A DNA stretch of 63,998 nt, the filler included, from Stramenopiles sp. TOSAG23-3 (taxonomy: Eukaryota), in the NCBI GenBank assembly GCA_900128585.1. It is 3 parts of 3 records of this genome, joined end to end, with 100 filler letters (N's around TTAATTAATTAA, not from the genome) between each part and the next. Parts side by side here need not be neighbours in the genome. Positions count along the whole stretch, not along the records: positions 21,971 to 43,749 come from LT642349.1; 2 more parts are not named here. One strand, written 5' to 3'. This document shows, piece after piece, positions 39,254 to 63,542 of the stretch; position 1 is the stretch's first letter, and the number at the start of each line of letters is the position of its first letter. The notes beneath the pieces are model-generated. The model was not told where the DNA came from. It did no database searches and saw only the letters and a program-made list of their open reading frames with translations. Made by a program: the position numbers and the translations under genes.

Positions 39254-40303
39254 TACAGCTATTTCGGGGAAGTTGGCTTGCTTGTTACCCATGGCCGCCA
39301 CTCAACGACTGTTGTGAGTCTCACCCGCTGCCAATTGAGCACCTTGTCCAAAGAAAATATTCGAACGCTGTGCCAAATCTTTCCCGAGTTTCGCAAATCC
39401 TTTCGCGAAGAAGCGTTGAAGCGAATGAAACGAACTCAGACCTCCCTAGTAAAAGCCAGGCCGGCAAAATGCAGTGAGCATAGACTGATGGTAGAAATTA
39501 TTAAAGCACACGGCGTTGCCCACGACGATGGCGCAAAGACGTATGCAAAATTACAGCTGCACGTACAAGACAAACTCGGCAATTTGAAACCCTTTGGAAC
39601 GTCCCATATGACAACGAAAGCAAGGGGCTCCAGTCCCGAGATTAAATACATTTGCAACATGGTTTTCTTCTGCCACGCAGATTTAGAAATGTCCCAAATC
39701 GTACTTGACATTACGTTTTGGCATACCCATTCGTGGAGAAAAGATACGTACATCGGCAGCGCAAGAATCACACCCGCATCTGCGCAGCCAGGGAAAGTTA
39801 ACTACGAATGGCACTATTTGGAGGATCACCGTCCGGTAACAGAGTGGGACAAGCTGTGGCACATGGTCCAAGAGCAAGGGCCAGTCGGGAAGGACGAGTT
39901 TGACCTTGGGCAAGTGCTGGTGAAAATGGCCAGACACCGGGATGGGTCCGGAGAAATTGCCAGGCTTCGCGCACTCCAATCATTGCGAGAGCTGGCCATG
40001 TTAGAGCATGAACTGGAACGCTTGTATGGGAAATTGGATCCCGACGACGACACGGAGAAGTACCACAAGAACAGGCAGAGAAGCAACACTGCTCTGAACT
40101 TGATGGATGACGATGGGATGGTGGGATTTACTGACACTGTGGGGGGGATGCCAGTTGCCAAAGCGGCCTACATTGTTCAAAAAAGTGTTGATTCGTCTCA
40201 AACCTTGCTAGATAAAGCTCGTCGGCTTTCTGAAACGCTTATGAGAATAAAAGCAAAGCAAGAGACGGAAGAAACGCTTCTAGAGAGAAAAGAGGAGTTA
40301 TGA
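39254..40303 (+). CDS. 3' fragment of a protein with a cyclic-nucleotide-binding domain, a C2 domain and a coiled coil
   Basis: Frame opens after TAG (39251-39253) with YSYFGEVGLLVTHGRHSTTVVSLTRCQLSTLSKE..FPEF, the second half of a cNMP domain. LMVEIIKAHGV..TYAKL..LDITFWH..KDTYIGSARI..EWHYL is a C2 domain. Confidence 0.75.
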   Translation, partial: YSYFGEVGLLVTHGRHSTTVVSLTRCQLSTLSKENIRTLCQIFPEFRKSFREEALKRMKRTQTSLVKARPAKCSEHRLMVEIIKAHGVAHDDGAKTYAKLQLHVQDKLGNLKPFGTSHMTTKARGSSPEIKYICNMVFFCHADLEMSQIVLDITFWHTHSWRKDTYIGSARITPASAQPGKVNYEWHYLEDHRPVTEWDKLWHMVQEQGPVGKDEFDLGQVLVKMARHRDGSGEIARLRALQSLRELAMLEHELERLYGKLDPDDDTEKYHKNRQRSNTALNLMDDDGMVGFTDTVGGMPVAKAAYIVQKSVDSSQTLLDKARRLSETLMRIKAKQETEETLLERKEEL

Positions 40304-41082
40304 GAACGAACCAAGTCAGAGTCGTAATGTCGTTTAAAACTTTTTTTGCAGCTAGATTATATTATTTAATGATTACCCTATTCATAACTCTATTATGCGT
40401 CGTGCAAAAAGTCTTCCTCTTATTGTATTACCTCGTAGTCGTCGGTGTGACCTTCATTCAACTTCCTCATCAAAAGCCTTCGTTGGTAACGTACCATAAT
40501 AAAGGTCCATTTAAAACTACAGCAAGCATTAAAATTTTTAAATACGCAGTGCTATTTATATACGTATATTACTGTATGATACAGTAGTAATACGATCTTT
40601 TTTACGATCTTTTTTTTTTTCCTCCCTCCTTTTTTTTATGGTGGTATCCTCGTACTACTTCGTAATACAGGTACGTAGTCGTCTACCCTAACCCTAACTC
40701 CTCGTACATAATGCTGGTAGAAATTCGAATTAAATCTATTAAGAATTCCATCACACATTTTTACTACTAGGTACTAGGTACCTGTAAAATAGGTACAGGT
40801 GCCATACTCCTCAGTCCTGGTGACTTGGTGTTGTAGTTAGATCCAGTAAAAAATATTAGGCTCCGAGGACATCAACACAAACGTGTTTCTTCTTAGTTGT
40901 TCTTTTCATGCCTTTTCTTTTGGAAAATTAGTTCCATTTCCATACATCGTAAGTTCGTAATTGCACAATCTTAGGAAGTGGAACGAGAACAAAGCACAAC
41001 ACCAACAACAACCAATTTTAAATTTCTTTTGATTCAGCTGCTTCTTACGTTTCTTGTAATCTTGCAGTTCCTAATCGACACT

Positions 41083-43404
41083 ATGTTAAAGAAGTTTCCT
41101 TCCGTGATTTTCAATGGCGCCGTTCGCAGAAGACACCCAACTTTGTTTCTTGAGAAACCTTTGACAAAAAATGCGTTGTTTGCCCAATCCCCCTCTTTTT
41201 GCTCGAAAAAATTCTCGGCGGCAGCTGCAGCGGCCACCTTCGATGCGGACAATACCCTGAGGGTACTGCACCGCGTGCAACAACTACTTGGCCACTCCTT
41301 TCGTTTTCCGCGAGTTGTTATGGTAGGGGACCAAAGTGTTGGGAAGACGTCCGTCGTGGAGTCCATCATAGGGGCTGACATAAGTGTCAAGGATCAAGCA
41401 ATGGCAACACGTCGTCCCCTGCTTTTGACGCTAATAAACATCCCCCACGGTCCCTTATACGCTCAATTTCGGGACGGTGAAAAAATGCATGATTTGAAAG
41501 ATGTAAGGGAACGCATCGAAGCGGAGAACAGCGTCACAGAAGGAGACATTTCCAATTCGCCTATCGAGTTGACAATCTTCGGTTCGCACGTATTTGACAC
41601 CATACTAATCGATTTGCCAGGGTTCATTATGGCCCCGGAAAGGCACCAGGCCTCAGATTTGCCGGAGCAAATCCAAAGGATGAATTTGGGATACTTGAAT
41701 GACCCGCAAAATATACTTGCCGTCGTAAACAGCGCAACTGCAGACCCGGCGACTTCCTTAGCCTTACGGGAAGCCTACAGGGCTGATGCTTCGGGGGATC
41801 GCTCACTTGGTATCGTCACCAAGATTGACTTGTGCTCAAAGAATGCAACGAATGCTGCTGGTCTGCTACGAATGTTAAAAAACGAAACATTGCCCCTTGG
41901 CCTTGGCAGGATTGGGATTCGTTGCAGAACAAACGAAGAGCAAAAGGACAACGTGGACTTCGACACTGTTATTGAGCGCGAAAAAGAGTGGATTGATAGT
42001 TCTGGTTTTACTAAAGATCCAAACGTGCGCTTGGGGGTTCCATTGTTACGTCGCGTTTTGTCGGAAACGCTGATTGAAAAAGTTTCGAGTGAACTACCAG
42101 CAATCATACGAAGACTGGACGTTAAAATAGCAAAAGCAAAAGAAAACGAAGACTTCTTGTCACGGCTGGCTGGTGAAACGAATATGAGAGCAGTTGCAAA
42201 AGAGCTTGAATACTTGGTCAACCAGTTGCACCCGTCCGCAGACGCAAGAGCCGATTTTGAGAAACTGCTTCGGAACGAAATACTGGATAAATGTGACGAA
42301 ATAACAGCAAAGGCATTTTCATACAATTTTGATGAAAACGAACCGATTCCGTACACAAAAGAAACTGAGATGAAAAGCACCGGGGAAGATTTCTGTGCTG
42401 GCCAGGTTTTGGGTAATCTCGATTATGATCCAAATGTAGACCGGGAAGAGTTTCGGAGTAACATATTACGTTACAGAGAAATGTTTGTTTATGGAGGAGA
42501 ATCATCGAATCTTGATGGAATTGAACAGCAAGGACTTGATGAACTCAGGGTTAGAGGTGTTGAAATTGGAGCGATCTCTTCCTATTTCAGGCAGCTAATG
42601 CCAGAGCATCCAAGGCGTGCCCGAAGCGCATGGATGAGGCGACTTAATGGAGCCATAGACGATGTCATCCAAGGGGATTCGACTGCAAACGAAGTTCGAG
42701 GCAAACCCTCTGTAGAGGCGAAGCCCGAGGAACAGGACGCCGACGTCATGACCCCAAGTGCACCTTCCGTGCCCGATCGCCCAGATATGAATACAGAATT
42801 GCCTGGTTTAGTCACCGAATCGTTCGATATATTTATGGATCGGCTGGACACTTTTGCAGAAATGGCCGACTCACGACACACAAAATCTGGCAATAACGAA
42901 AAAAAACTAGCTCGTATGTATTTTGAATTCTTGCTTAAAAAAATAAGCAACAGGATACACGATCAACAGATGCAAAAAGAACTTGTCGGTGTTATCGAAC
43001 GTGAACGGCGTCCCATGTCTGGCTATTTGGAGTTGCAGAACGAAGTTTCCAAATCTTTACGTTACCCAGAAAAAACTTCATTTTTTAACAGTGTTTTCTC
43101 GTCCCAAGAGACTGTGGAAGTTTGTATGTTCAATAAGGAATGGACCGAGGCATACCGTAAAGTACTGGCGCTGCGGATGGGCGATGATATTTTCAGGTTA
43201 ATGGCCGTCCGCTTGCTAGAACCGCTTGTGTTTGAAGCTATTCAATTTAGTCTGAATCTGTTTAACAACAACAGTACTGTTGTTCGTGAAGCAAAAATGG
43301 CGGGGAAAGAAACGAAAGAGTTGATAGAGCTTCGTGACGTTCTCAAGAACACTCTTCAAAGGTACCATAACAAGGAAGCAGAACACAACGACGATGGTGA
43401 ATGA
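41083..43404 (+). CDS. Dynamin-related GTPase with a predicted mitochondrial presequence (candidate MidX-type)
   Basis: G1 PRVVMVGDQSVGKTS; G2 ATRRPL; G3 DLPG; G4 TKID. The N-terminal ~50 aa are basic/hydroxylated and nearly acid-free; no TM segment after ATG 41083. Confidence 0.9.
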   Translation: MLKKFPSVIFNGAVRRRHPTLFLEKPLTKNALFAQSPSFCSKKFSAAAAAATFDADNTLRVLHRVQQLLGHSFRFPRVVMVGDQSVGKTSVVESIIGADISVKDQAMATRRPLLLTLINIPHGPLYAQFRDGEKMHDLKDVRERIEAENSVTEGDISNSPIELTIFGSHVFDTILIDLPGFIMAPERHQASDLPEQIQRMNLGYLNDPQNILAVVNSATADPATSLALREAYRADASGDRSLGIVTKIDLCSKNATNAAGLLRMLKNETLPLGLGRIGIRCRTNEEQKDNVDFDTVIEREKEWIDSSGFTKDPNVRLGVPLLRRVLSETLIEKVSSELPAIIRRLDVKIAKAKENEDFLSRLAGETNMRAVAKELEYLVNQLHPSADARADFEKLLRNEILDKCDEITAKAFSYNFDENEPIPYTKETEMKSTGEDFCAGQVLGNLDYDPNVDREEFRSNILRYREMFVYGGESSNLDGIEQQGLDELRVRGVEIGAISSYFRQLMPEHPRRARSAWMRRLNGAIDDVIQGDSTANEVRGKPSVEAKPEEQDADVMTPSAPSVPDRPDMNTELPGLVTESFDIFMDRLDTFAEMADSRHTKSGNNEKKLARMYFEFLLKKISNRIHDQQMQKELVGVIERERRPMSGYLELQNEVSKSLRYPEKTSFFNSVFSSQETVEVCMFNKEWTEAYRKVLALRMGDDIFRLMAVRLLEPLVFEAIQFSLNLFNNNSTVVREAKMAGKETKELIELRDVLKNTLQRYHNKEAEHNDDGE

Positions 43405-43472
43405 ATTGAGTTATAAAATCCCTACTTTAAATTTAAGACGAAGTAATTACGAAGTATTGATTATATTAACTT

Positions 43473-43648
43473 TTGTACTTATCCGATTTTGTGTCCACAG
43501 GGGTGTGTACCGGTATGTGTGTTAACTTTGTGTGAACTTTTTCTTTTAATTAAAAAACTAGCAGGGAGGTAGTTTTAATTTTTAAAAAGTTCACACACAC
43601 AAACTCCTCCCCCCTCTGGACACAAAATCGGATACTTTAAAAGTACAA
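43473..43648. mobile_element. ~175-nt foldback (MITE-like or hairpin RNA precursor)
   Basis: Nested inverted arms: ttgtactt/aagtacaa; tatccgattttgtgtcca (43480-43497)/tggacacaaaatcggata (43617-43634); tgtgtgaacttttt/aaaaagttcacaca; aaaacta/tagtttt. Confidence 0.6.
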
Positions 43649-43749
43649 CAATATAATTTTTCAAGTTTTATTACAAGACAGACAACGAGCACCTCAAAAA
43701 CAATTAAGCCGCTGCTTGGAAGATCGTACAAGGATTGATTTATCTCTGA

Positions 43750-43849
43750 NNNNNNNNNNNNNNNNNNNNNNNNNNNNNNNNNNNNNNNNNNNNTTAATTA
43801 ATTAANNNNNNNNNNNNNNNNNNNNNNNNNNNNNNNNNNNNNNNNNNNN
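43750..43849. other. Artificial contig linker
   Basis: 44 N + TTAATTAATTAA + 44 N. Confidence 0.95.
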
Positions 43850-44549
43850 TTCTTTGAATGGACAAAACATACAACTGGGGGAAAGGTTACAAAATTAAAA
43901 ACGGAAAATTGGCCCTGTTATTTAAAAAGCAAGAGATAAAATTAAACATAAAATATATCTATTCATATAGACACCTGTATTTATAATACTAATTCATATT
44001 ACGTGCCATCACTCATCACTGTGAACTCTGATGCTTCGACATTATAATATTTAGCTCAGCAGCCGGAAGGCTTTCATAGCGCCAGTGTGAACAAGACTCT
44101 ACTAATAATTAGTGTCTATAATAAGTATAGTAATCTTATATTCTAATTTATATAAATAATGTCTTCTTCTCCCTCTATTCTCTATGTACTTTTCTTTAAT
44201 TATTATATATTACGTATAATTCGCTGATTGAATTCTCCGCCAGAAGAAGAGAGAAGAGGGGAGGAAGAGTAGTATTACCACAAACTTCTTCTTTTTTTTT
44301 TTTATTAATAATAATAAATAATAAAAGGTATTCTTTTATTAATAATTTGTTGTTCGGGGTTCTTCTTCTTTATTGTTCGTTGTAGGTAGTATAGAGGATG
44401 ATAGTAACTTTATATCTAACCTCTATTTGAAATATCAAGCTGCTCTTGTACTCGAGAAGATGACAACAATTATTCTATTGCAACGTCGGAATTTCGTATT
44501 ATAATTATTCAGTGTGGTACTGTACATAACACACGCAGAGGAGAGGGCA

Positions 44550-45368
44550 ATGTCCTCGGGGTCGAGCTCCTCTTCTGATGACGAGGAGTGGGGCAGTGTG
44601 AATTTTACACCACTTTTCGGCGGCGCCCTTCCTTATGGCGCCTACGTCGTTAATGATCAGCGCAGCATAAAAATAGAGACGGCAAATTTCCACGATGTCC
44701 CCTCAAATTTGTTTGCGACAGACATTTGGGGGGGCGCGCTGGCGGCAGCCGACTATTTTAAAGAGAACCGGGGCACCATTGTAAATAAAACTGTTATCGA
44801 GTTCGGAGCGGCGGGGAGCCTGCCGAGCTTGGTTGCGTTAGCCTTAGGGGCTCATTTTTTATGCTGCACAGACTACCCCAACGATGCACTGATAAAATCG
44901 ATCAACAAACAGTTCGATTCTAACGGATTTTCTGAAGCGAGGGGCAAGAGCTTTGAGTGCAAGGGGCACCTTTGGGGATCGGATACAAAACAACTTCTTG
45001 ACTTGATACAGACAAACAACGACACGGAGAAACGGTTTTACGACGTTGTTATTTTGGCGGAGTTGCTGTGGAACGATACGTACCTGCAGCACGAAAGTTT
45101 GCTCACGTCCGTAGACTCTGTTCTAGCCCAAGACGGGTCTGTCTATGTTGCACACACACACCACAACGTAGGCGAAGAGCATTTGGACATGGAATTCTTC
45201 AAAAGAGCGTCTTCTCAATTTTCGTTTGATGTACGTACCGTAATGGTGAGGCATGATTTGGTGTACATTGATAGTTCGGAAGATGACGTTAGCCCAGTGT
45301 ATTTAAGGGTGATGACGAGGGCAAAGGGTGCAAAAGGGTCCATTTGCTTAGAGCCTGCCGCTACATAA
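44550..45368 (+). CDS. Methyltransf_16 family protein methyltransferase (EFM7/NNT1-like)
   Basis: LFATDIWGGALAAADY, NKTVIEFGAAGSLPSL, TDYP, GHLWG, YDVVILAELLW, HTHH. ATG at 44550. Confidence 0.88.
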   Translation: MSSGSSSSSDDEEWGSVNFTPLFGGALPYGAYVVNDQRSIKIETANFHDVPSNLFATDIWGGALAAADYFKENRGTIVNKTVIEFGAAGSLPSLVALALGAHFLCCTDYPNDALIKSINKQFDSNGFSEARGKSFECKGHLWGSDTKQLLDLIQTNNDTEKRFYDVVILAELLWNDTYLQHESLLTSVDSVLAQDGSVYVAHTHHNVGEEHLDMEFFKRASSQFSFDVRTVMVRHDLVYIDSSEDDVSPVYLRVMTRAKGAKGSICLEPAAT

Positions 45369-62528: not shown

Positions 62529-63542
62529 ATGGGTGTTGAAGTCTTTCGCGCCCCCCTTTATCGACGGTTCCTTGCCGATAGACTTACGTGTGGGTACGTG
62601 CTCGCGCTGTTGTTTCAGGTAACCGTAGTAATCTTGCCGTTCTTCCTTGCGTACACGTCGGAAGGGTTTTGGATGAAATCGAATACTTTCCGGGAAATGC
62701 CCAAGGTCTCGTTCCAGTACCAGGCAATGATGTCCGCTGGCATAAAGTCCTCCGACGCGAACGACGTAGAAATTCAAAAGGTGAGCTACGCGCTCAAGCA
62801 TGAATCCCTGGAGCTTTTGGAGGAGAGCATGCGGATACCGAAAATTCGGTACTGGAAGGACGACGCCAACCTGGACGGCTTCCCGGAGAAACTCCATTTA
62901 GACGTGGAGCTCCCGTTGAAAACCACGGAGGCGGTCTACTCGCTGGACGCACTCTTTGTCTTCCAGCTGGAGCTGAGCAAGCGCTCGAAGATCCGGGTCG
63001 AGGCGCCCGTCGTCGTGCAGCACGAAAGTGCCTTTCCGGGGGAGTCGCTGTACACCAACGGCGTTCTCACGTTTGTACAGCGCGAGCCTTTGTCCGTCCG
63101 GGGCGGTTTTAGAGAACCGTACTCGAACTCACCATTGTTAGGGAATAGCATCAAAACCGACGCCAACGTGCAAGTTCCGCATTTGTCCGTGACGGAACTT
63201 TCCATGCCATTCTTAATCGAAAAGATACAGGGCCGCAATTACACGACGTACTTGCAGAACACGATGTCTAGCTGGGGCCCACGCCCGGAGGGGGTCACGC
63301 CGTTGACCGGCGCTAGGCCATTTAAATTTAGTGTTGTCGTCAACGTGCCAGAGCAGACAGTCTTGTACTTACCATCCCTGTCTGAAATGTTGAAATTTGC
63401 GTTCGTTCAGTACTTGGCGATGGCCTTCATCGTATACCATTTATGCTGGTACGCAATCGAATTCGTTTTTGCTTATCAAGTCGTTGAGACGACGAGTAGA
63501 ATGGATACACAATATTATGGACCGAAAGTTCATCGGTTTTAA
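62529..63542 (+). CDS. TMEM231: Ciliary transition-zone protein TMEM231
   Basis: PFFLAYTSEGFWMK..FREMPKVSFQY, DDANLDG, GVLTFVQREPL, EMLKFAFVQYLA, FVFAYQVVET match TMEM231. Confidence 0.9.
   Translation: MGVEVFRAPLYRRFLADRLTCGYVLALLFQVTVVILPFFLAYTSEGFWMKSNTFREMPKVSFQYQAMMSAGIKSSDANDVEIQKVSYALKHESLELLEESMRIPKIRYWKDDANLDGFPEKLHLDVELPLKTTEAVYSLDALFVFQLELSKRSKIRVEAPVVVQHESAFPGESLYTNGVLTFVQREPLSVRGGFREPYSNSPLLGNSIKTDANVQVPHLSVTELSMPFLIEKIQGRNYTTYLQNTMSSWGPRPEGVTPLTGARPFKFSVVVNVPEQTVLYLPSLSEMLKFAFVQYLAMAFIVYHLCWYAIEFVFAYQVVETTSRMDTQYYGPKVHRF

What the first reader, a model, noticed from the sequence alone, without database searches (positions are those of the whole stretch)
41083..43404. Candidate matrix-targeted mitochondrial dynamin (MidX-like)
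Seen: intact dynamin G1-G4 motifs begin ~60 aa after a presequence-like N-terminus (MLKKFPSVIFNGAVRRRHPTLF...SKKFSAAAAA), with no TM segment and a C-terminal half unlike the Drp1/Vps1 middle and GED regions. Established: Drp1/Vps1 are cytosolic, Mgm1/Opa1 have a presequence plus a TM, and a group named MidX, found in giant viruses and scattered protists including stramenopiles, is reported to remodel mitochondria from inside the matrix. Inference: this intronless gene is a MidX member or a new matrix dynamin lineage, possibly exchanged with viruses. It is the best candidate for unusual biology in the window.
Basis: partly seen in the sequence, partly recalled or inferred. Interest (0 to 1): 0.75.

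Follow-up and report, generated by a model that had tools for sequence, protein, structure and literature searches.

The report
Mitochondrial MidX-type dynamin gene, already described

Summary
The ORF at 41083-43404(+) is real. It encodes 773 aa with all dynamin GTP-binding motifs intact. It starts with a basic, acid-poor, unstructured stretch of about 52 aa and has no membrane-spanning stretch. The hydrophobic segment upstream has no in-frame ATG. Metatranscriptome contigs from three studies run collinear with the DNA from about 40996 to 43453, with no intron and no earlier AUG.

The protein is homologous over its whole length to proteins of Incisomonas marina, Telonema subtile, Choanoflagellata sp. 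UC4, Thecamonas trahens and giant viruses, including Fadolivirus. That is the taxon set published for MidX (Sheikh et al. 2023, PMC10280142). In two trees this family splits with 97-99% support from Drp1/Vps1/dynamin/Mx, Mgm1 and Opa1. The window protein sits in a 100%-supported eukaryotic subclade, not in the viral one.

An AlphaFold2 model (pLDDT 84.6) shows G domain, three-helix BSE and four-helix stalk. Inserts sit in the H1-H2 and H3-H4 links, the split variable domain reported for MidX.

Verdict: a MidX member, most likely matrix-targeted. Localisation and function are inferred, not shown. No sign of recent viral origin. Known family, so modest interest.

The parts
40996..41082 (+). Probable 5' UTR. 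It contains the in-frame hydrophobic-looking stretch but no ATG in any frame.
   Evidence: RNA contigs of two studies begin at 40996 (X11) and 41003 (X10). No ATG lies in 40996-41082. The in-frame stop is at 40972-40974. Contig ends are only a weak hint of the true transcript start.
41083..43404 (+). Coding sequence of the MidX-type dynamin-related protein: 773 aa plus stop, no intron.
41083..41238 (+). Presequence-like N-terminal extension, aa 1-52. A candidate processing motif K42-K43-F44|S45 lies within it.
   Evidence: Net charge is +6 in the first 40 aa, with one acidic residue. pLDDT is below 50 for 1-52/53 in both models. The [RK]x[FYL][SA] motif occurs in 27 of 59 complete family N-termini against 139 of 1346 background windows.
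41245..41289 (+). BSE helix 1 (aa 55-69).
   Evidence: DSSP of the model. GTPase-BSE constructs align across model residues 51..765 at Z 33-34.
41314..42003 (+). GTPase domain (aa 78-307). G1 is at 41326-41349, G2 (T109) at 41407-41409, G3 at 41611-41622 and G4 at 41818-41829.
   Evidence: Pfam Dynamin_N, the alignment to dynamin-1 and the invariant columns.
42094..42171 (+). BSE helix 2 (aa 338-363), followed by a 4-residue break (364-367) that I read as hinge 1.
   Evidence: DSSP. The hinge assignment is my own reading.
42184..42327 (+). Stalk helix H1 (aa 368-415, kink at 383-386), carrying the family motif R389..F392-E393.
   Evidence: R389 is kept in 65 of 69 and E393 in 64 of 69 sequences.
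42328..42525 (+). Variable-domain segment 1 (aa 416-481), inserted between stalk H1 and H2.
   Evidence: DSSP elements E429-432, H439-445 and H454-469.
42526..42693 (+). Stalk H2 region (aa 482-537), with the basic motif P510-R-R-A-R514..W517.
   Evidence: R or K at position 514 in 59 of 66 and W517 in 59 of 67 ungapped sequences.
42694..42807 (+). Disordered acidic and proline-rich loop (aa 538-575) between H2 and H3. Length varies across the family.
   Evidence: pLDDT below 50 for 538-571. The alignment is gapped here.
42808..43008 (+). Stalk H3 (aa 576-642), ending in the first two residues (E641, R642) of the family motif E641-R-R643-P644; R643 and P644 open the next segment.
   Evidence: E641 is kept in 59 of 67, R643 in 61 of 68 and P644 in 57 of 68 sequences.
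43009..43134 (+). Variable-domain segment 2 (aa 643-684), inserted between stalk H3 and H4.
   Evidence: DSSP elements H648-659, H667-672 and E676-681.
43135..43392 (+). Stalk H4 (aa 685-728) and the C-terminal BSE helix 3 (aa 730-770), which is the structural equivalent of the GED.
43405..43453 (+). Probable 3' UTR.
   Evidence: RNA contigs end at 43450 (X11) and 43453 (X10, X12). This is a weak hint only.

Best explanation
The locus is a nuclear gene of a marine protist and is expressed. It encodes a member of the MidX group of dynamin-related proteins.

Proposed mechanism:
- Translation starts at the first AUG of the mRNA (41083).
- The basic, unstructured N-terminal stretch of about 45-52 residues acts as a mitochondrial presequence.
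- There is no hydrophobic stop-transfer segment, so the whole protein passes into the matrix. It may be cut near K42-K43-F44|S45.
- In the matrix the protein binds the matrix face of the inner membrane peripherally, through the tip of its stalk. That tip is a variable domain built from two inserts (aa 416-481 and 643-684) plus conserved basic motifs (PRRAR..W, ERRP).
- Like other dynamins, it uses GTP-dependent G-domain dimerisation and stalk-mediated assembly to bend or remodel that membrane.

Shown here: gene structure, presence in RNA libraries (metatranscriptome contigs), intact GTPase motifs, family membership and domain layout.

Inferred: import, matrix location, membrane binding and remodelling. 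These rest on the published heterologous work with the Hyperionvirus MidX.
For: Family membership
- Full-length relatives include Incisomonas marina (47% identity), Telonema subtile (55% over 60% of the query), Choanoflagellata sp. UC4 (53% over 48%), Thecamonas trahens and an uncultured giant virus (24% over 88%). These are the lineages the MidX paper names.
- Fadolivirus is one of only two isolated MidX-bearing viruses according to the paper. Its protein P0266 lies in the viral branch of the family.
- P0266 aligns to the window protein in both halves: 29% over 75-533 (E 8e-48) and 25% over 609-754 (E 7e-17).
- The predicted Fadolivirus structure is the top BFVD hit, E 2.5e-38 against 7.9e-19 for the next.
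- Mgm1 aligns only over residues 61-412.

Trees
- FastTree, 137 rows: the family of 73 is one clade at 97%.
- IQ-TREE LG+C20, 61 rows: the family of 36 is split off at 99%. The window lies in a 100% clade of 10 with Incisomonas, UC4 and Telonema.

N-terminus
- Net charge of the first 40 aa is +6. The family median is +5, and 55 of 66 members are at +3 or more. GED-type DRPs have a median of -2, and 0 of 28 reach +3.
- Residues 1-52 are disordered in both models.
- The longest uncharged run before the P-loop is 12 residues.

Structure
- The model has pLDDT 84.6 and pTM 0.75, with inserts in both stalk-tip links.

RNA
- Contigs of runs X10/X12, X11 and X19 (three studies) lie collinear on 40996-43453.

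Published function
- The Hyperionvirus MidX expressed in T. brucei is protease-protected in mitoplasts and fractionates as a peripheral inner-membrane protein.
Against: - The clade is identified through its named taxa and Fadolivirus.
- No trained targeting or TM predictor was available. My hydropathy control was weak: only 1 of 4 Mgm1-like and 0 of 5 Opa1 N-termini reached KD 1.6. Hydropathy scores alone therefore do not exclude a weak TM segment. The 12-residue limit on uncharged runs is the stronger argument.
- The candidate cleavage motif has Lys rather than Arg at position -3.
- In FastTree the family is sister to Opa1 (93%), not to Mgm1 as published. In IQ-TREE the deep order is unresolved.
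- The closed conformation reported for MidX models could not be measured, because no coordinates were returned.
- Matrix location has been shown only for one viral homologue in a foreign host, and that homologue shares roughly a quarter of its residues with this protein.
- RNA contigs come from RNA libraries that can carry DNA, and contig ends do not prove transcript ends.
Confidence: 0.8

Rival explanations
1. It is an Mgm1/Opa1-like inner-membrane fusion dynamin that works in the intermembrane space, and its membrane anchor has been missed. The anchor would be either the upstream hydrophobic stretch or an unannotated 5' exon.
For: A strongly hydrophobic in-frame stretch lies just upstream (KD 2.38). 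The published sister group of MidX is Mgm1. The protein shares 29% identity with Mgm1 over 61-412.
Against: - There is no in-frame ATG between the stop at 40972-40974 and 41083.
- There is no ATG in any frame in 40996-41082, and RNA contigs show no joint.
- The 71%-identical relative (P0003/P0099) has unrelated, non-hydrophobic sequence upstream of its Met.
- No LIS_MGM1 or OPA1_C hit.
- The P-loop is at residue 82, against 170-350 in Mgm1 and Opa1.
- 0 of 66 family N-termini reach KD 1.6.
- The family is separated from Mgm1 and Opa1 at 97-99%.
Confidence: 0.05
2. It is a cytosolic or otherwise non-mitochondrial dynamin-related protein, and the N-terminal extension is a disordered linker with no targeting role.
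For: No trained predictor was run. The extension has little amphipathic-helix signal: the best 18-residue hydrophobic moment in residues 1-50 is below that of the BSE helix. The putative cleavage motif uses Lys.
Against: A basic, acid-poor extension is a shared trait of the family (55 of 66 at +3 or more) and is absent from GED-type DRPs (0 of 28). Several close relatives have textbook Arg/Ala/Leu/Ser-rich N-termini, for example P0005, P0006 and P0115. The paper reports predicted MTS in nearly all complete MidX proteins and shows import of one.
Confidence: 0.08
3. The gene is a recent insertion from a giant virus (an endogenous viral element) rather than a resident cellular gene.
For: The family is shared with Imitervirales. 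The gene has no intron. Its GC3 (0.461) is 1.7 SD below the mean of the 26 other long ORFs.
Against: - It sits in the eukaryotic subclade, apart from the 99%-supported viral subclade.
- Neighbouring genes are cellular: Nop52, ABCG-type transporter, PQ-loop, TMEM231 and peptidase C1. No viral hallmark was seen among 26 ORFs.
- Codon-usage cosine to the other ORFs is 0.932, inside their range of 0.83-0.97 if one outlier at 0.47 is set aside.
- Most genes of the window are also uninterrupted.
Confidence: 0.03

Closest known systems
MidX, the mitochondrial DRPs of unknown function of Sheikh et al. 2023 (PMC10280142). The reference protein is HypMidX, Hyperionvirus14_8.
   Same: Same taxon set of relatives and the same clade structure: a eukaryotic subclade holding stramenopile, telonemid and choanoflagellate sequences, and a separate viral subclade. 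Both have a short basic N-terminal extension, no TM segment and no GED signature. The variable domain is split between the H1-H2 and H3-H4 links. The link between BSE and stalk is short, with no extra helix.
   Different: This is a cellular rather than a viral member, with about 24-29% identity to the viral proteins. It carries a longer disordered H2-H3 loop (aa 538-575) that is gapped in most relatives. Nothing about its native location or role has been tested.
Mgm1 (fungal inner-membrane fusion and crista dynamin; PDB 6ql4, 6jsj)
   Same: Mitochondrial dynamin with G domain, BSE and stalk. 29% identity over the G domain and BSE helix 2. VIA-align gives Z 30.
   Different: Mgm1 has a long N-terminal region with a TM anchor and works in the intermembrane space. 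It carries the LIS_MGM1 domain, which is absent here. No sequence alignment extends beyond residue 412. The full-length superposition has rmsd 23-26 A.
Opa1 (animal inner-membrane dynamin; PDB 8ct1, 8eew)
   Same: Presequence-bearing mitochondrial dynamin. The G domain aligns at E about 1e-22.
   Different: Opa1 has a TM anchor and the OPA1_C domain, with its P-loop at about residue 240-350. It forms a separate, 100%-supported clade.
Drp1/Dnm1/Vps1 and classical dynamin
   Same: These give the best sequence and fold matches for the G domain plus BSE: E 5e-39, Z 33-34 and 28-35% identity.
   Different: They are cytosolic, with the P-loop at about residue 32-45 and no basic extension. They have a complete Dynamin_M and a GED domain: 45 of 56 generic representatives carry GED. 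They form a separate clade.

Membership tests
MidX | Falls in the clade that unites Imitervirales proteins with proteins of stramenopiles, Telonemia, Picozoa, Amoebozoa, apusomonads and one choanoflagellate, apart from Mgm1, Opa1 and Drp-type proteins. | tested here: met
   The family clade has 97% support and 99%. Named members are Incisomonas, Telonema, Choanoflagellata sp. UC4, Thecamonas and Fadolivirus. The paper names the same lineages and Fadolivirus.
MidX | Short N-terminal extension with presequence character ahead of the first BSE helix. | tested here: met
   Residues 1-52 are disordered. Net charge is +6 in the first 40 aa with one acidic residue. The same trait is found in 55 of 66 family members and 0 of 28 GED-type DRPs. 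These are proxy measures only.
MidX | MTS called by trained predictors such as TargetP or MitoFates. | not testable with these tools
   No such predictor was on hand.
MidX | No transmembrane domain between the MTS and the G domain. | tested here: met
   The highest KD-19 mean before the P-loop is 0.67 and the longest uncharged run is 12 residues. The upstream hydrophobic stretch has no AUG. The hydropathy control on Mgm1 and Opa1 was insensitive.
MidX | Variable domain made of two separate segments, one between stalk H1 and H2 and one between H3 and H4. | tested here: met
   DSSP of the pLDDT-84.6 model shows structured inserts at 416-481 and 643-684 in exactly these links. Contact between the two inserts in 3D could not be inspected, because no coordinates were returned.
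MidX | No short helix in hinge 1. | tested here: inconclusive
   H338-363 is followed by a 4-residue break and then H368-382, with no separate short helix. The hinge assignment is my own.
MidX | AlphaFold2 predicts a closed conformation, with the stalk folded against the G domain. | tested here: inconclusive
   Indirect evidence only. Full-length open structures superpose at rmsd 17-32 A. The lowest values are for 8t1h (12.8 A), 5a3f (17.2 A) and 6fgz (17.3 A). The TM-score to the Fadolivirus model is 0.52/0.57.
MidX | Located in the matrix, peripherally bound to the inner membrane. | not testable with these tools
   Shown in print only for HypMidX expressed in T. brucei.
Mgm1 | TM anchor after the presequence, a long pre-G region and the LIS_MGM1 lipid-interacting stalk domain (PF24550). 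| tested here: not met
   No PF24550 hit at E<=1. The P-loop is at residue 82 against 170-341 in Mgm1. It forms a separate clade.
Opa1 | OPA1_C domain (PF19434) and a TM anchor. | tested here: not met
   No PF19434 hit. It forms a separate clade.
Drp1/Vps1/dynamin/Mx | Complete Dynamin_M and GED (PF02212), G domain at the very N-terminus, and placement in that clade. | tested here: not met
   Dynamin_M matches only profile positions 3-101 of 287, and there is no GED hit. It is separated from the clade at 98-99%.

The most novel reading that the evidence does not exclude
In this protist MidX is the resident and perhaps the only inner-membrane dynamin. It would work natively from the matrix side in inner-membrane division or crista shaping, and would replace Mgm1/Opa1. 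Its tight grouping with Telonema inside a stramenopile-dominated clade would mark one more protist-to-protist transfer of this machine. The gene is intron-free, 2.3 kb long and its sequence is recovered in RNA contigs from ocean metatranscriptomes, which makes it a convenient cellular MidX for a first functional test.
Probability: 0.3. Interest if true: 0.6.

Novelty: already known. Interest (0 to 1): 0.3.

Why it matters
MidX is the only dynamin reported to act from inside the mitochondrial matrix. So far only a viral member has been tested, and only in a foreign host. I found no native function of a cellular MidX in print (searches: the 2023 paper, plus two papers that mention MidX).

This locus adds no new family. 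It does give a clean, complete cellular gene model: first AUG, no intron, RNA contigs from three studies. It also corrects two public models of the same gene. One is an 808-aa GTG-started version with a false membrane anchor. The other is a 788-aa version with an unsupported 3' splice.

Tried and rejected
I could not check whether this exact protein is among the 130 published MidX sequences. A member of its 90% cluster is in EukProt (P0091), a resource the authors say they searched.
- No whole genome is held for the window. The presence or absence of Mgm1, Opa1 or Drp1 paralogues in the same organism is therefore unknown.
- Earlier notes of this scan held nothing, by place or by sequence.
- The organism's taxon was not determined. 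The gene tree alone cannot decide between a stramenopile and a telonemid-like host.
It was replaced by the 69-sequence model.
- Hydropathy thresholds as a TM test: the positive controls mostly failed, so I rely on the uncharged-run length and on gene structure instead.
- Tupanvirus: its BFVD entry 'Dynamin family GTPase' matched only weakly (E 5.8e-4). I cannot say whether that entry is its MidX.
- No Hyperionvirus entry matched strongly (best 2.8e-11, a 343-aa protein). HypMidX itself was not available to any tool I used.
- Rfam on 40300-44600 gave only a sub-threshold miRNA-precursor match to a hairpin (33.9 against 245 bits).
- RNA contig cover is absent at 40400-40959 and 43536-43647. This is no evidence that those parts are silent.
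- Complex prediction was not used. Two full-length copies exceed its size limit, and no binding claim is made.
Full report
**The sequence**

The window holds an uninterrupted ORF at 41083-43404 on the + strand, giving 773 aa. Pfam finds Dynamin_N at residues 78-248 (E 6.5e-26). It also finds only the first 101 of the 287 positions of Dynamin_M, at 262-360 (E 1.5e-11). There is no GED, OPA1_C or LIS_MGM1 hit at E<=1.

The best solved relatives by sequence are dynamin-1 GTPase constructs (E 5e-39, query 73-358). Vps1, Mgm1, Drp1, Mx and Opa1 follow, all through the G domain. The GTP-binding motifs are G1 GDQSVGKT (82-89), G2 T109, G3 DLPG (177-180) and G4 TKID (246-249). All are present, and they are invariant or nearly so in the family alignments.

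**Start codon and membrane anchor**

The frame is open upstream to a stop at 40972-40974 and there encodes a very hydrophobic stretch (19-residue Kyte-Doolittle mean 2.38). It contains no in-frame ATG. The 808-aa public version of the protein (P0002) starts 35 residues upstream of the ATG, where the window's frame reads valine and has no ATG; I read this as a prokaryote-style call on an alternative (GTG) start. The 71%-identical relative has unrelated, non-hydrophobic sequence in the same place.

Contigs of four metatranscriptome runs were laid on 40400-43740. The runs come from three studies; X10 and X12 are one sample.
- X10 covers 41003-43453.
- X11 covers 40996-43450.
- X12 covers 41112-43453.
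- X19 covers patches.
They carry 0-1 differing letters and no joints.

No ATG in any frame lies between 40996 and 41082. So 41083 is the first AUG of the RNA as assembled, and the gene has no intron. Contig ends are only a weak hint of transcript ends, and RNA libraries can carry DNA.

A 788-aa public model (P0092) has a different C-terminus, as if spliced near the 3' end. The RNA contigs run unspliced through the stop codon.

**N-terminus**

- Residues 1-40 carry 7 basic and 1 acidic residue, net +6.
- Residues 1-52/53 have pLDDT below 50 in both models, and the first helix starts at residue 55.
- Before the P-loop, the highest hydropathy window is 0.67 and the longest run without a charged residue is 12. 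That is too short to cross a membrane.
- The hydropathy threshold itself is a poor test. Only 1 of 4 Mgm1-like and 0 of 5 Opa1 N-termini reached 1.6.

The basic extension is a family trait. 55 of 66 complete family members have a net charge of +3 or more in their first 40 residues (median +5). Among GED-type DRPs, 0 of 28 do (median -2), and their P-loop sits at about residue 34.

A motif [RK]x[FYL][SA] resembles the R-3 processing motif as I recall it; that definition comes from no call. It occurs in the 30 residues before the first helix in 27 of 59 complete N-termini, against 139 of 1346 background windows. Here it is K42-K43-F44|S45. No trained targeting predictor was available.

**Relatives**

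The first search gave 87 hits. The top 16 align over most of the protein and list no GED. The rest align only to the first 27-43% of the protein, the G-domain end.

Named members of the near group are:
- Incisomonas marina (EP00750), 47% identity.
- Telonema subtile (EP00656), 55% over 60% of the query.
- Choanoflagellata sp. UC4 (EP00912), 53% over 48%.
- Thecamonas trahens, as a fused 1658-aa model.
- An uncultured virus protein on a 650-kb contig, 24% over 88%.

A profile search of 1.84 billion representatives listed 150 hits. The first 82 (988 to 275 bits) come before the first hit whose match is confined to profile positions 43-338. Most of these 82 match nearly the whole profile.

Of 56 lower-ranking representatives scanned with Pfam, 45 carry GED, 3 carry LIS_MGM1 and 2 carry a PH domain.

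In IMG/VR, 32 giant-virus loci encode relatives, and two of them (L001, L032) match the query nearly end to end. A profile of the viral branch retrieved the 693-aa 'dynamin superfamily protein' of Fadolivirus algeromassiliense (P0266). It aligns with the window protein in both halves: 29% over 75-533 (E 8e-48) and 25% over 609-754 (E 7e-17). Mgm1 of Geotrichum aligns only over 61-412.

**Comparison with print**

For Sheikh et al. 2023 (PMC10280142) I read the abstract and outline, section 6 part 1, sections 7 and 9, and passages. The paper defines MidX by these features:
- A predicted MTS.
- No TMD.
- A variable domain split between H1-H2 and H3-H4.
- No short helix in hinge 1.
- Closed AlphaFold2 models.

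It states that telonemid, picozoan and the choanoflagellate sequences nest in a fully supported, stramenopile-dominated clade. It also states that Tupanvirus and Fadolivirus are the only isolated MidX-bearing viruses. My family has the same named taxa and the same internal structure.

**Trees**

FastTree on 137 rows used 69 family sequences, 31 IMG/VR ORFs of 500 aa or more out of 32 (L003, a 230-aa fragment, was left out), and 37 named or Pfam-labelled outgroups.
- The 73 family rows, including 4 IMG/VR ORFs, form one clade at 97%.
- The other 27 IMG/VR ORFs fall among the GED-type, Mx and DRP4C-like proteins.
- Mgm1-like and Opa1 are each 100% clades.

IQ-TREE (LG+C20+F+G4 PMSF, quick search, SH-aLRT) was run on 61 of those 137 rows.
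- The 36 family rows are split off at 99%.
- The viral subclade has 99% support.
- The window protein lies in a 100% clade of 10 with Incisomonas, UC4 and Telonema.
- Its nearest rows are P0003 (100%), then P0004 (99%), then Telonema subtile (99%).

Against the paper, FastTree puts the family next to Opa1 (93%) rather than Mgm1, and IQ-TREE leaves the deep order open. Many rows have deviant composition, and several branches are long.

**Structure**

With 69 family sequences, AlphaFold2 gives pLDDT 84.6 and pTM 0.75. The order of elements is:
- Helix 55-69.
- G domain 78-307.
- Helix 338-363, then a 4-residue break.
- Helices 368-382 and 387-415.
- A structured insert at 416-481.
- Helices 482-537.
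- A disordered loop at 538-575.
- Helices 576-594 and 604-642.
- A second structured insert at 643-684.
- Helices 685-728 and 730-770.

GTPase-BSE fusion constructs of dynamin, Drp1, Vps1, MxA and Opa1 align at Z 30-34 over 306-339 residues, spanning model residues 51 to about 765. So helices 55-69, 338-363 and 730-770 form the BSE.

The two inserts lie in the H1-H2 and H3-H4 links, as described for the MidX variable domain.

Full-length solved dynamins align 460-540 residues, but at rmsd 17-32 A. The lowest value is 12.8 A for the native Drp1 dimer 8t1h. Next come the dynamin-3 tetramer 5a3f (17.2 A) and CmDnm1 6fgz (17.3 A); the paper calls the CmDnm1 crystal structure closed. That 8t1h is an autoinhibited, folded-back form is my recollection and comes from no call. 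This fits a non-open conformation but does not measure it, because no coordinates were returned.

In BFVD the Fadolivirus protein is the top match by far: E 2.5e-38, TM 0.52/0.57 and rmsd 11.2 A over 759 columns.

**Conserved C-terminal motifs**

These motifs lie at or near the stalk-tip inserts, and the window protein has all of them:
- R389..F392-E393: R in 65 of 69, E in 64 of 69.
- [KR]-x-R514..W517: R or K in 59 of 66, W in 59 of 67.
- E641-[KR]-R643-P644: E in 59 of 67, R in 61 of 68, P in 57 of 68.

I propose the basic ones as the membrane-binding face. That is inference.

**Context**

Among 26 other long ORFs, Pfam recognises cellular eukaryotic genes: Nop52, papain-type peptidase, an ABCG-type transporter, PQ-loop, PHD/HMG, RRM, PhyH and TMEM231. 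No viral hallmark was seen.

27 ORFs of 200 aa or more fill 59% of the window. The dynamin gene has GC 0.459 and GC3 0.461, against 0.499 +/- 0.029 and 0.562 +/- 0.059 for the others. Its codon-usage cosine is 0.932, within their range. The stretch is held by runs of 12 studies, mostly marine metagenomes and metatranscriptomes.

**Verdict**

The gene is a cellular member of a family published in 2023, so it is not new. A member of its 90% cluster is in EukProt, which the authors searched. I could not see their table.

What remains open is what MidX does in its own cell. In some searches I found only the 2023 paper plus two that mention MidX: PMC11789081 (passages read) and PMC11885689 (listing only).

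Noticed in passing
window 43480-43634: A long hairpin begins about 30 bases after the RNA contigs end. The outer arms are 24 nt (96% complementary) and the inner arms 14 nt (100%). It is unique in the window. The only Rfam match is far below threshold (MIR2646, 33.9 against 245 bits).
   Followed up: partly
window 43671-43740, next to N runs at 43750-43793 and 43806-43849: A short stretch with very high summed depth in all four metatranscriptomes (34-192) and loose ends on both sides, directly beside two 44-base N runs. It may be part of a multicopy or widely conserved RNA or repeat whose core is masked or unassembled.
   Followed up: no
window 40975-41082: Public prokaryote-style gene calls of this locus (808 aa, P0002, P0089, P0094) begin 35 residues upstream of the ATG, at a non-ATG start. 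This adds a false N-terminal hydrophobic 'anchor'. JGI names for the cluster ('GTPase Era...') are also misleading.
   Followed up: yes
window about 43360-43404 (3' end of the CDS): A 788-aa NCBI-source model (P0092) replaces the last 11 residues (from N763) with 26 unrelated residues, as if an intron were spliced near the 3' end. RNA contigs run unspliced through the stop codon.
   Followed up: partly
window 40683-40700: Two and a half telomere-like units (ccctaaccctaac) in the intergenic region upstream of the gene. This could be chance.
   Followed up: no
window 62529-63542: A TMEM231 homologue (Pfam TM231, E 7.6e-60). TMEM231 is a ciliary transition-zone protein by my recollection, which would imply a flagellated organism.
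   Followed up: no
L002, L004-L018, L020-L028, L030, L031 (IMG/VR): 27 of 31 giant-virus dynamin ORFs fall outside MidX in two viral-only clades. One clade of 15 sits near the Drp-type proteins. The other, of 12, is sister to a plant DRP4C-like protein. They may be the MADS or Mx-like viral lineages mentioned in PMC11789081.
   Followed up: no
P0124 (Thecamonas trahens, 1658 aa): The public Thecamonas model fuses the MidX-like protein (first ~710 residues) to a long unrelated C-terminal part. UniRef names it 'Coronin'. It is probably a merged gene model.
   Followed up: no
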